A stretch of 64,000 bases of DNA, from contig CAZIIR010000001.1 in assembly GCA_964539475.1 (NCBI GenBank), forward strand, positions 2,869-66,868, written 5' to 3'. The stretch's first letter is position 1. Each line of letters begins with the position of its first letter. This document shows positions 3,658 through 3,740 of this stretch, piece by piece. The translations under genes were made by a program, and so were the position numbers. The stretch is from an uncultured Candidatus Saccharibacteria bacterium. Lineage in GTDB: Bacteria > Patescibacteriota > Minisyncoccia > Phycocordibacterales > XYD1-FULL-46-19. The notes beneath the pieces are model-generated. The model worked only from the letters and a program-made list of their open reading frames with translations, was not told the origin of the DNA and made no database searches.

Positions 3658-3740
3658 TGAGCGTGTGGCAGCAAGGTGGCTGCAATCTGAAATGAAATCA
3701 GTAACAACTGACGGGCGAGTTCGATTCTCGCCACGCTCAA
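3658..3740 (+). tRNA. tRNA-like gene with an 8-bp acceptor stem, a canonical T-arm (gcgag-TTCGATT-ctcgc), a long variable arm and a possible UGA anticodon (Ser-like). No CCA is encoded
   Basis: The acceptor strands tgagcgtg and cacgctca, the D-stem gcag/ctgc with a GG-containing loop, and the T-loop TTCGATT were all read from the sequence. The anticodon arm is irregular, with A at position 33. Confidence 0.4.

What the first reader, a model, noticed from the sequence alone, without database searches (positions are those of the whole stretch)
3658..3740. A second, non-canonical tRNA-like gene with an 8-bp acceptor stem, a long variable arm, a UGA-type anticodon loop with A33 and no encoded CCA
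The features were hand-folded. The acceptor strands are tgagcgtg and cacgctca (8 bp, as in tRNA-Sec and some type II tRNAs). The D-stem is gcag/ctgc with a GG loop. The T-arm is gcgag-TTCGATT-ctcgc. The variable region is about 12 nt. The anticodon arm is irregular: a 4-bp stem with a U-U mismatch and the loop AAUGAAA, where position 33 is A instead of U. This could be a genuine type II tRNA (Ser-like), a suppressor or decoy tRNA, or a tRNA-like 3' module of the upstream large RNA. It contrasts with the clean tRNA-CAU at 17932-18008.
Basis: seen in the sequence. Interest (0 to 1): 0.6.

Follow-up and report, generated by a model that had tools for sequence, protein, structure and literature searches.

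The report
Non-decoding tRNA-like module in phage RNA array
The flagged sequence is a real tRNA-shaped fold but probably not a working tRNA: it ends a 1-kb untranslated phage locus built from repeated units of a motif, a hairpin and a tRNA-like element, and that motif is nearly invariant and sits next to tRNAs in dozens of uncultivated phages.

Summary
On its own the element folds much better than shuffles (z -3.9).

No tRNA detector accepts it:
- ARAGORN finds nothing at default settings and calls tRNA-Ser(UGA) only with relaxed thresholds.
- The Rfam tRNA model stays below its gathering score.
- The Rfam tRNA-Sec model gives 29.6 bits against a threshold of 47.

The proposed anticodon stem is predicted to form with p about 0.01-0.03. 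A competing hairpin (3698-3711) has p about 0.9. Position 33 is A. Decoding is therefore unlikely.

The element closes an ORF-free stretch, 2752-3755. That stretch holds two units of [33-nt motif "M1" - long hairpin - tRNA-like element]. The first tRNA-like element (3167-3247) encodes ACCA and has homologues with compensatory changes in two other phages.

M1 occurs about 36 times in 34 distinct environmental phage contigs. In 9 of 35 usable copies a T-arm plus acceptor starts within 25 nt downstream; shuffles give about 0. M1 matches no Rfam family. It is absent from 50,697 GenBank phage records, and an exact-string search of the held papers found it only inside an unrelated PCR primer.

Best reading (confidence about 0.5): a tRNA "top-half" mimic. 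Host tRNA-processing enzymes would use it to cut and stabilise a modular phage non-coding RNA array.

Caveats: there is no diverged homologue of this exact element. A 15-bp upstream helix also competes with its acceptor stem.

The parts
2752..2816 (+). Conserved 65-nt leader of the untranslated locus. It contains the hairpin GUCAGUGG...CCACAGUAACUGAC.
   Evidence: It is 93-98% identical in relatives whose flanking protein is only about 82% identical, while the sequence just downstream of it is replaced. A promoter-like site overlaps 2739-2766, but this is only a consensus match.
2815..2852 (+). Motif M2, CCGGUAAGCG(U/G)AAGCUGGUUAAGACUG.CGCCGGUUAG, with a GNRA-capped hairpin.
   Evidence: It is 93% identical over 42 nt to L006/L023, where it lies directly after M1.
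2951..2990 (+). M1 motif, copy A (core 2953-2987): AGAGACUGAGCAACCUG-loop-UGGUGGCUCAAC.
   Evidence: Direct repeat D1. An nhmmer profile of 36 M1 copies scores it at E 1.1e-13. The motif is nearly invariant in 34 loci.
2988..3165 (+). Long hairpin A, with arms 2988-3008 and 3145-3165 (21 nt, 90% complementary) and a 136-nt structured interior.
   Evidence: Inverted repeat I1. It is formed in the minimum-free-energy folds.
3167..3247 (+). tRNA-like element TLS-A. Acceptor GUAGGUC (3167-3173) pairs with GGCCUAC (3237-3243). T-like arm is GGCAG-GUAAUUA-CUGCU (3220-3236). Discriminator is A3244, CCA is encoded at 3245-3247, and AUUU follows.
   Evidence: Fold. Homologues in L059 and L039 (E 1e-7 and 3e-6). 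Six pairs keep pairing through changes on both sides. In L039 it starts 8 nt after M1.
3513..3550 (+). M1 motif, copy B (core 3515-3547), a more diverged copy: loop GUUUAAUAG, then GGGGGCUC.
   Evidence: Direct repeat D1, 78% identical to copy A. nhmmer E 1.3e-9. It is absent from strain L087.
3548..3661 (+). Long hairpin B, a perfect 15-bp helix (3548-3562/3647-3661) with an 84-nt interior. Its last 3 bp overlap the acceptor 5' strand of TLS-B.
   Evidence: Inverted repeat I2. Pair probabilities 0.94-1.0. In L087 both helix strands are kept while the interior is replaced by unrelated sequence.
3659..3739 (+). tRNA-like element TLS-B, the finding itself (3658-3740 in the 8-bp reading). Parts: acceptor; 5-bp D arm with GG; 14-nt linker containing the 'UGA'; hairpin 3698-3711; T arm with UUCGAUU; discriminator A; no CCA.
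   Evidence: It is 100% identical in L086, L087 and L088. The nearest relatives, L106 and L112, share the acceptor sequence and the T loop, with one compensatory T-stem change.
3756..3929 (+). First downstream ORF (57 aa). Its start codon lies 16 nt after the end of the tRNA-like element.
   Evidence: The same protein is called in independent assemblies.

Best explanation
The element at 3659-3739 is a tRNA-like RNA that keeps the 'top half' of a tRNA and has lost a usable anticodon arm. The top half is the acceptor stem, the T arm with a canonical T loop, and a D arm with GG, so the elbow can form.

It is the last unit of an untranslated phage locus of about 1 kb (2752-3755). That locus is built from a conserved leader and two modules of [M1 motif - long hairpin - tRNA-like element].

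Inferred mechanism:
- The locus is transcribed with the + strand genes around it.
- Host tRNA-maturation enzymes recognise the acceptor/T minihelix and elbow. These would be RNase P at G3659, RNase Z or exonucleases after A3739, and the CCA-adding enzyme.
- Cleavage separates the array from the downstream mRNA, whose 5' end would lie about 15 nt before the ATG at 3756.
- Cleavage also releases stable small RNAs: M1 plus hairpin, and the tRNA-like RNA itself.

The element itself does not decode.

What is shown: the fold, the modular architecture, the link between M1 and tRNA-like elements across phages, and the failure of tRNA criteria. What is inferred: transcription, cleavage by RNase P and RNase Z, and any downstream role. 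The function of M1 is unknown.
For: 1. The fold is non-random: z -3.9, 0 of 200 shuffles as good. D and T stems have p > 0.96 even in context. All 17 pairs of the 7-bp acceptor, 5-bp D stem and 5-bp T stem are Watson-Crick, while the anticodon stem is degenerate.
2. tRNA criteria fail. The anticodon stem has p 0.01-0.03 against 0.9 for the alternative hairpin.
3. The architecture is modular. There are two M1 copies. Each is followed by a long hairpin and then by an acceptor/T element.
4. M1 is linked to tRNAs and tRNA-like elements elsewhere. In 9 of 35 copies a strict T-arm plus 7-bp acceptor starts within 25 nt downstream. The same detector gives 1 hit upstream, 0 on the reverse strand and a mean of 0.01 in 200 shuffles. 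The downstream elements include near-canonical tRNAs:
   - L001, RF00005 at 48 bits.
   - L026, tRNA-Ile.
   - L010, 'tRNA-Ala' but with C33.
   They also include expanded elements of 72-175 nt ending in ACC(A).
5. In a relative at about 82-84% protein identity (L084), M1 is followed after 3 nt by a tRNA-like element ending GCCA-AUUU, and then by another tRNA-like element.
6. TLS-A has homologues with compensatory changes.
7. TLS-B, L106/L112 and L010 share an acceptor and T arm with compensatory changes, while their central regions cannot be aligned.
8. There is precedent for tRNA-like elements used as RNase P and RNase Z cleavage signals: plant mitochondrial t-elements (PMC1920247).
Against: - No diverged homologue of TLS-B itself was found. 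L086, L087 and L088 are identical over it, so there is no covariation test for this element.
- In the unprocessed context the 15-bp helix of hairpin B is predicted to outcompete the acceptor stem (acceptor p 0.03-0.04; the cloverleaf is 3.3 kcal/mol above the minimum free energy). That would disfavour RNase P recognition unless tertiary contacts or co-transcriptional order compensate.
- TLS-B lacks the encoded CCA that the phage's tRNA-Met and TLS-A both carry.
- There are no expression or end-mapping data.
- Sequence-conserved central regions in the TLS-A and TLS-C classes suggest these RNAs do more than mark cleavage sites.
- The invariance of M1 is partly by construction, because copies were retrieved with exact patterns.
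Confidence: 0.5

Rival explanations
1. It is a genuine, unusual decoding tRNA: tRNA-Ser(UGA) or another type II tRNA. It would be matured by RNase Z and the CCA-adding enzyme and would supplement the host tRNA pool.
For: ARAGORN with relaxed thresholds calls tRNA-Ser(tga) at 3658-3740. The T loop is canonical, and GG and U8 are present. tRNA-Sec is the best Rfam clan match, at E 0.0022 in a 1.6-kb search. Phages often carry odd tRNAs.
Against: It is below threshold in every detector at default settings. Position 33 is A rather than the nearly universal U33. The top of a 4-bp anticodon stem is a U-U mismatch. That stem has p 0.01-0.03 against 0.9 for the competing hairpin. The 12-nt variable region has no stem in the cloverleaf register. 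The discriminator is A rather than G73, the tRNA-Ser identity base (own knowledge). The phage's true tRNA-Met is clean at 54 bits and encodes CCA.
Confidence: 0.07
2. It is a decaying pseudo-tRNA, a relic of a former tRNA cluster with no present function.
For: tRNA detectors score it just below threshold. The locus evolves quickly by deletion and cassette replacement. TLS-B has lost CCA, while TLS-A and tRNA-Met keep it.
Against: Damage is confined to the anticodon and variable region. All 17 acceptor, D and T pairs stay Watson-Crick, which is not what neutral decay predicts. The same selective retention of the top half recurs in unrelated phages. The element is untouched in L087 although the adjacent 84-nt interior was replaced and about 184 nt upstream were deleted.
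Confidence: 0.15
3. It is a decoy or sponge. As a tRNA top-half mimic it would titrate or misdirect a host factor that binds the tRNA acceptor, elbow or 3' end. Candidates are a tRNA-targeting defence nuclease or nucleotidyltransferase toxin, a synthetase, or EF-Tu. Processing would be incidental.
For: The acceptor, T and D architecture is preserved without decoding capacity. It sits among short + strand ORFs of unknown function, in a region of the genome I take to be expressed early. Distinct tRNA-like classes with conserved central sequence (TLS-A, TLS-C) are shared among unrelated phages, which suggests specific partners. M1's invariance across phages with 36-60% GC suggests a universally conserved binding partner.
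Against: The anticodon-loop region is not conserved between elements, so mimicry of one particular tRNA anticodon, the usual target of anticodon nucleases, is unlikely. No defence-related or anti-defence gene was identified next to it. There is no direct evidence for any partner.
Confidence: 0.18
4. The acceptor pairing is incidental. The true structure is the 15-bp hairpin B followed by three independent hairpins, all part of one larger folded RNA, with no tRNA mimicry.
For: In context the 15-bp helix has p 0.94-1.0 and the acceptor pairs 0.03-0.04. The helix strands are kept in L087 despite an interior swap.
Against: The cloverleaf costs only 3.3 kcal/mol more, and the model ignores D-loop/T-loop tertiary energy. 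The exact tRNA spacing is present: a 2-nt 8-9 linker, a T stem abutting the acceptor 3' strand, a UUCGAUU loop and GG in the D loop. This is the geometry found downstream of M1 in 9 other loci. L106 and L112 carry the same acceptor sequence in an element ending GCCA, with no such upstream helix.
Confidence: 0.1

Closest known systems
Plant mitochondrial t-elements, tRNA-like processing signals (PMC1920247)
   Same: They are non-canonical cloverleaves that keep a conserved T arm and acceptor. They sit between transcripts, are cut by RNase P and RNase Z, sometimes receive non-encoded C/A, and define mRNA 5' and 3' ends. Here the element lies 16 nt before the next ORF.
   Different: Those are organellar and shown experimentally. 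This one is phage-encoded, sits in a repeated module with an invariant upstream motif and long hairpins, and has no end-mapping data.
MALAT1/MEN-beta mascRNA-type tRNA-like 3' modules (Rfam RF01684; mechanism from my own knowledge)
   Same: A tRNA-like element at the 3' end of a long non-coding RNA recruits RNase P. Cleavage releases a small tRNA-like RNA and sets the 3' end of the upstream RNA, which is protected by an adjacent structure. The analogy here is M1 or a hairpin just upstream.
   Different: Those are eukaryotic. There is no sequence or model match for this element: RF01684 matched only a true tRNA in L014, weakly. M1 is not a U-rich triple-helix element.
GOLLD and ROOL large phage RNAs associated with tRNA islands (PMC12286853, PMC12990946)
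   Same: They are large untranslated phage RNAs next to or containing tRNAs. tRNAs can be embedded in the GOLLD linker. Their function is unknown.
   Different: There is no GOLLD or ROOL hit even at E up to 10, and none at gathering score in 13 M1 loci. M1 8-mers are absent from the published GOLLD, ROOL and OLE sequences and alignments (this check is weak because the alignments contain gaps). The architecture here is a tandem array, not a 5'/3' two-domain RNA.
Phage T4 stable RNAs C and D (species 1 and 2) in the tRNA gene cluster (my own knowledge, not checked here)
   Same: They are phage-encoded stable RNAs of unknown function. They are co-transcribed with tRNAs, have tRNA-like acceptor/CCA ends, and are matured by RNase P.
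   Different: No sequence relationship was tested. The T4 RNAs are not associated with an M1-like motif.
tRNA-Sec (RF01852) and allo-tRNAs with unusual acceptor/T configurations (PMC5389517, listed)
   Same: The acceptor-T branch may total 13 bp (8/5 or 7/6), the D stem is longer than 4 bp, and the region between the anticodon and T arms is extended. tRNA-Sec is the best Rfam clan match.
   Different: The score is 29.6 bits against a threshold of 47. The anticodon is UGA, not UCA, and position 33 is A. There is no variable-arm stem in register. The D arm is 5 bp with a 6-nt loop, not 6 bp with a 4-nt loop. The eighth acceptor pair is absent from the most similar elements, such as L010.

Membership tests
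Canonical elongator tRNA (Rfam RF00005 / ARAGORN) | The covariance-model or heuristic score reaches the family threshold. | tested here: not met
   There is no RF00005 hit at the gathering score of 29 bits; only the tRNA-Met at 17932 is reported. ARAGORN at default settings finds none. It is found only with relaxed -ps thresholds.
Canonical elongator tRNA (Rfam RF00005 / ARAGORN) | A 7-bp acceptor, a T arm of 5 bp with a UUCRANY loop, and a D arm with G18 and G19. | tested here: met
   Read directly from the sequence. T and D stems have p > 0.96.
Canonical elongator tRNA (Rfam RF00005 / ARAGORN) | A 5-bp anticodon stem and a 7-nt loop with U33 and a purine at 37. | tested here: not met
   There are 4 bp plus a U-U mismatch, and position 33 is A. 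Stem pair probability is 0.01-0.03, and the competing hairpin has about 0.9.
Bacterial tRNA-Sec (Rfam RF01852) | Score at or above the gathering threshold, anticodon UCA, an 8/5 acceptor/T branch, a 6-bp D stem with a 4-nt loop, and a long variable stem-loop. | tested here: not met
   The score is 29.6 bits against 47. The anticodon triplet is UGA. The D arm is 5 bp with a 6-nt loop. An 8/5 branch is possible but not required. The variable region has no stem in register.
Type II tRNA-Ser | A long variable arm with a stem, and a G73 discriminator (the identity rule is from my own knowledge). | tested here: not met
   The 12 nt at 3703-3714 are unpaired in the cloverleaf register. The discriminator is A3739, or A3740 in the 8-bp reading.
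Suppressor tRNA in a recoded phage | An anticodon complementary to a stop codon (CUA, UCA or UUA), and in-frame stop codons in phage genes. | tested here: not met
   The triplet is UGA, which reads UCA. Long ORFs, including one of 3316 aa, are intact under code 11.
tmRNA | A tRNA-Ala-like acceptor/T domain with a tag reading frame and pseudoknots between the acceptor strands. | tested here: not met
   ARAGORN's tmRNA search finds none at default settings. There is no Rfam tmRNA hit. The acceptor strands are only about 65 nt apart.
GOLLD / ROOL | A match to the family covariance model. | tested here: not met
   There is no hit at E up to 10 in 2400-4000 and none at gathering score in the whole window.
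tRNA-like processing element (t-element / mascRNA type) | An acceptor/T minihelix with an intact elbow, located at a boundary between transcription units. | tested here: met
   The structure is shown. It lies at the 3' end of the ORF-free 2752-3755 stretch, 16 nt before the ORF at 3756.
tRNA-like processing element (t-element / mascRNA type) | Mapped RNA ends coincide with the element's 5' and 3' ends, and RNase P and RNase Z cleave it. | not testable with these tools
   No transcript data or enzyme assays are available. In silico the upstream helix competes with the acceptor.
M1-associated phage tRNA-like elements (a class defined here) | The M1 motif lies upstream on the same strand, followed by an acceptor plus T arm element. 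| tested here: met
   M1-B at 3513-3550 lies 111 nt upstream, with hairpin B in between. In other loci the gap is 5-20 nt. The variant L087 lacks M1-B but keeps the element, so the link is not obligatory.

The most novel reading that the evidence does not exclude
M1 and the tRNA-like elements are parts of a previously undescribed, widespread family of modular non-coding RNA arrays in uncultivated phages. At least three recurrent tRNA-like classes are involved: TLS-A, TLS-B-like and TLS-C. In these arrays tRNA top-half scaffolds carry variable or class-specific central cassettes. The almost invariant 33-nt M1 would be the binding or processing site for a universally conserved host factor. The arrays would then be a phage device for producing stable small RNAs, or for manipulating the host tRNA machinery.
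Probability: 0.35. Interest if true: 0.8.

Novelty: new variant of a known kind. Interest (0 to 1): 0.6.

Why it matters
If the reading is right, some phages use tRNA mimicry for something other than decoding. The mimic would act as a handle that lets host RNase P, RNase Z and the CCA-adding enzyme cut and stabilise a modular array of small non-coding RNAs.

The work also turned up an about 33-nt motif, M1. It is nearly identical in more than 30 unrelated environmental phage contigs spanning 36-60% GC. It is physically coupled to tRNA and tRNA-like genes. It is absent from Rfam and from cultured-phage records, and an exact-string search of the held papers found no description of it. Such invariance points to a universally conserved host partner and gives a concrete, testable entry into phage non-coding RNA biology.

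For annotation there is a practical warning. These elements are missed at default tRNA-finder settings, or miscalled as tRNA-Ser, tRNA-Ala or tRNA-???.

Tried and rejected
- Known RNA families. Rfam was run at gathering score on the whole window and at E up to 10 on 2400-4000. It was also run on 13 M1 loci and at E up to 10 on three small loci. Nothing explains M1 or the locus. The weak ToxI, Hammerhead_1 and SPRY4 hits are chance-level.
- GOLLD, ROOL and OLE. M1 words are absent from the Kretsch et al. supplements. This is a weak test because the alignments contain gaps.
- Homologues in the phage collection. blastn of 2700-3800 against the phage collection found nothing. M1 against the same collection gave only a chance 23-nt hit.
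- Exact T-arm/acceptor 27-mer in IMG/VR: 0 hits.
- Flanking proteins in IMG/VR: no relatives.
- Protein route to relatives.
  - The upstream 102-aa protein led to contigs that all stop inside M1.
  - The downstream 57-aa protein led only to identical or near-identical strains, plus one relative without the RNA locus.
- A looser TLS-B pattern in IMG/VR returned mostly ordinary phage tRNAs, because GAGCGNGUGG is a common tRNA start. It also returned a set of tRNA-Leu-derived non-canonical elements without M1.
- A relaxed 'acceptor plus NCC' detector has a high background (13 of 35 against a shuffle mean of 5.6). I used it only to find candidates.
- Covariation between M1's variable position (UGG-N-GGCUC) and the discriminator base, as in a T-box: the pattern was not consistent. 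This was read.
- M1 as a lambda/P22 boxB-like hairpin, as an rrn boxA-like element, as an 11-nt tetraloop receptor, or as a promoter. These resemblances were noted by eye only. They are not consistent across variants and are not claimed.
- A shared M1-linked protein. Only a UvrD-like helicase is shared between the window and M1 loci. The neighbours in other phages are replication genes.
- attP or integration-site reading. This was rejected because the cloverleaf is full length, no integrase was seen, and M1 is essentially absent from bacterial genomes.
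Full report
**1. What is at 3658-3740**

- A 7-bp Watson-Crick acceptor (3659-3665/3732-3738), with an optional eighth pair U3658-A3739.
- A D arm whose 4-bp stem can extend to 5 bp, with GG in the loop.
- A 5-bp T arm, extendable to 6 bp, with the canonical loop UUCGAUU.
- No encoded CCA.

On its own the 83-mer folds at -32.6 kcal/mol, against -21.3 +/- 2.9 for dinucleotide shuffles (z -3.94; no shuffle as good).

**2. Is it a tRNA?**

- ARAGORN at default thresholds finds only tRNA-Met at 17932-18008.
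- Rfam at gathering thresholds finds only that same tRNA, at 54 bits.
- With permissive filters the best clan match for the element is tRNA-Sec at 29.6 bits, against a gathering score of 47.
The element is therefore just sub-threshold.

The weak part is the anticodon arm. It has four pairs under a U-U mismatch and A at position 33. In the Boltzmann ensemble that stem has pair probabilities of 0.01-0.03. The mutually exclusive hairpin 3698-3702/3707-3711 (loop AACA) has about 0.9, both in isolation and in context. The UGA triplet therefore sits in a predicted 14-nt single-stranded linker.

Other points against a decoding tRNA:
- The discriminator is A, not the G73 of bacterial tRNA-Ser and tRNA-Sec (my own knowledge).
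- Anticodon UGA would read a serine codon, not a stop codon.
- The window's ORFs are intact under genetic code 11.

I conclude that a decoding tRNA, a Sec-tRNA or a suppressor is unlikely.

**3. The surroundings**

The stretch 2752-3755 is free of credible ORFs. It lies between a 102-aa gene and a 57-aa gene, in a + strand block of small genes.

It contains a 36-nt direct repeat, which I call M1: copy A core at 2953-2987 and copy B core at 3515-3547.

Each M1 is followed immediately by a long hairpin:
- Hairpin A has 21-nt arms at 2988-3008 and 3145-3165.
- Hairpin B has perfect 15-nt arms at 3548-3562 and 3647-3661.

Hairpin B runs straight into the flagged element.

- Acceptor GUAGGUC (3167-3173) pairs with GGCCUAC (3237-3243).
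- A 5-bp arm with a 7-nt loop abuts the acceptor 3' strand.
- Then come A, an encoded CCA (3245-3247) and AUUU.

The phage's true tRNA-Met ends in the same way, ACCAAUUU.

The locus is therefore a leader plus two modules of [M1 - hairpin - tRNA-like element]. The finding is the second tRNA-like element, TLS-B.

**4. Related sequences**

The phage is novel.
- There is no nucleotide match in 50,697 phage records.
- The SNF2/DEAD-type helicase at 15640-17010 is only about 30% identical to its best matches.
- There are no PHROG hits for the large proteins.

*The M1 motif in other phages.* An exact-pattern scan for M1 gave 16 IMG/VR loci. A slightly looser pattern gave 59 metagenome loci.
- About 34 distinct loci (36 copies) carry the full motif yCCAGAGACUGAGCAACCUG-CUGACAAUG-UGGUGGCUCA. 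Conservation extends beyond the positions fixed by the search pattern.
- The remainder are chance or coding matches.
- Only two hits occur in one genome per species of 185,579 bacterial and archaeal species.
- There are none in GenBank phages.
- Searching M1 as an exact string in the held papers returned only unrelated hits. The one I opened was a PCR primer.
- No Rfam family covers it.

*What follows M1.* It is followed by tRNAs or tRNA-like elements far more often than chance allows. A strict detector was used: a 5-bp T stem, a KUCRANN loop and an adjoining 7-bp acceptor.
- It finds an element within 300 nt downstream in 10 of 35 usable copies.
- In 9 of these the element starts within 25 nt of M1.
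- It gives 1 hit upstream, 0 on the opposite strand and a mean of 0.01 in 200 shuffles.

Some downstream elements are near-canonical tRNAs:
- L001, 48 bits.
- L026, tRNA-Ile.
- L014, where a tRNA-Leu lies 38 nt after M1.

Others keep the acceptor, the T arm and ACC(A) but have aberrant or greatly expanded centres of 72-175 nt. L010 is called tRNA-Ala but has C33.

*TLS-A homologues.* TLS-A has true homologues in L039, where it starts 8 nt after M1, and in L059 (E 3e-6 and 1e-7). Six base pairs are maintained through changes on both sides in just three sequences.

*A third class, TLS-C.* GACUCAG-CG-GCGUGGACAGYGACACGC...CCUGAGUC-ACCA recurs in L001, L010, L059, L071 and L084.

*Relatives of TLS-B.* The nearest are L106 and L112. 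They have the same acceptor sequence and T loop and one compensatory T-stem change, and they end in GCCA. Their central regions cannot be aligned with TLS-B.

**5. Close relatives of this phage**

- Contigs whose 102-aa protein is 82-84% identical keep the first 65 nt of the locus almost unchanged. They replace what follows and keep M1, as a GACCGAGC variant.
- All six Logan contigs (Logan is the public-read assembly collection) stop inside M1. I take this to mean that M1 is repeated in those genomes.
- The one JGI contig that continues (L084) shows M1, then after 3 nt a tRNA-like element ending GCCA-AUUU, then a TLS-C.
- Two assemblies carrying the identical 57-aa protein cover the whole locus. 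L086 is identical to the window.
- L087 lacks 3362-3545, including M1-B. Its hairpin B interior is replaced by unrelated sequence. Both helix strands and TLS-B remain 100% identical.

The locus is therefore a fast-evolving cassette array. There is still no diverged copy of TLS-B with which to test covariation.

**6. Complication**

In the context 3510-3745 the 15-bp helix of hairpin B uses G3659-G3661. It is predicted with p 0.94-1.0, and the acceptor pairs drop to 0.03-0.04.

The structure with a 12-bp helix plus a full cloverleaf-type acceptor is 3.3 kcal/mol less stable (-86.2 against -89.5). That gap is within what D-loop/T-loop tertiary contacts could supply. Even so, the acceptor cannot be taken for granted in the precursor.

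**7. Interpretation**

The pattern is a perfect acceptor, D stem and T stem with a canonical T loop and GG, alongside a ruined anticodon arm. It is embedded in a repeated module and mirrored in other phages. This fits a tRNA top-half mimic rather than a decoder or a randomly decaying pseudogene.

The top half is what RNase P, RNase Z and the CCA-adding enzyme recognise (established knowledge). tRNA-like 't-elements' that serve exactly as such cleavage signals are documented in plant mitochondria (PMC1920247).

I therefore favour a processing and stabilising handle, at confidence about 0.5. It would separate the non-coding array from the downstream mRNA and release stable small RNAs.

The conserved central sequences of TLS-A and TLS-C suggest additional functions, and so does the invariance of M1. 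These could include decoy or sponge roles. They remain open.

GOLLD and ROOL share the theme of a large phage RNA associated with tRNAs (PMC12286853, PMC12990946), but their models do not match.

**8. Verdict**

- The element is a new variant of a known kind, a tRNA-like processing or mimic element. It sits in a modular array defined by a motif for which I found no prior description.
- Interest is 0.6. It is moderate to high because of M1 and the recurrent tRNA-like classes. It is tempered by the lack of expression data and of covariation evidence for this particular element.

Noticed in passing
window 3167-3247: A second tRNA-like element (TLS-A) with an encoded ACCA followed by AUUU. It has homologues in L039 and L059 with compensatory changes.
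   Followed up: yes
window 2953-2987 and 3515-3547; L001-L075: M1 is a motif of about 33 nt, GACUGAGCAACCUG-loop-UGGNGGCUC. It is nearly invariant in about 34 distinct uncultivated phage contigs with 36-60% GC. It is absent from Rfam, from GenBank phages and from almost all bacterial genomes. Its function is unknown.
   Followed up: partly
L087 compared with window 3362-3645: A near-identical strain lacks 3362-3545, including M1-B. The interior of its hairpin B is swapped for unrelated sequence, while the helix strands and the tRNA-like element are kept. This looks like cassette-like evolution.
   Followed up: partly
L078-L083 (Logan contigs): All six contigs that carry the 82%-identical upstream gene end at the same base inside M1. 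I take this to mean that identical M1 copies are repeated in those genomes and break the assemblies.
   Followed up: no
L001, L006, L009, L010, L036, L043, L066 and others, 50-600 nt upstream of M1: Further conserved non-coding motifs appear in a fixed order. M6 is CACCUUCAAAUCAGCACAUUGCAGUGAGGGCAC. M4 is GUGAGCGACCUGACCAGUGUGUUGAUUUGAGGG and contains an M1-like 11-mer. M5 is CAGAGAUUUGCUGAUCCCACUGG. M3 is CAGCCUCGGCUCCGUCACUGUAACGACGGGC. M4 and M5 have complementary segments arranged like a pseudoknot. This may be an undescribed large phage RNA.
   Followed up: partly
window 2815-2852; L006/L023: Motif M2, with a GNRA-capped hairpin, is 93% identical between this phage and an unrelated contig, where it directly follows M1.
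   Followed up: no
L094, L096, L106, L110, L113, L117, L127: These are single tRNA-like elements with acceptor GAGCGYG/CRCGCUC, a tRNA-Leu-like D arm (UGGCGGAAUG.AAAGACGC, G18-G19 lost), a T arm GCAGG-UUCAAAU-CCUGC, and unrelated 30-80-nt centres. They sit just after ORF stop codons behind an (A)CAAUUU leader. ARAGORN misses or miscalls them.
   Followed up: partly
window 18003-18012, 3244-3251; L001, L007, L009, L059, L071, L084: The 3' flank NCCA-AUUU recurs after the true tRNA-Met, after TLS-A, and after tRNA-like elements of unrelated phages. It may be a shared processing-site signature.
   Followed up: no
L010 8813-8877 (-): There is a type II hammerhead ribozyme hit above its gathering score (40 bits against 37) in an M1-bearing phage contig, about 7 kb from M1.
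   Followed up: no
window 27018-36968 (-) and other large ORFs: There is a 3316-aa ORF, and none of six large late-region proteins has a PHROG match. The phage appears unclassified.
   Followed up: no
window 19042-20610(+)/19057-20223(-) and 51448-53625(+)/51589-53640(-): Long ORFs overlap on opposite strands. One of each pair is presumably spurious.
   Followed up: no
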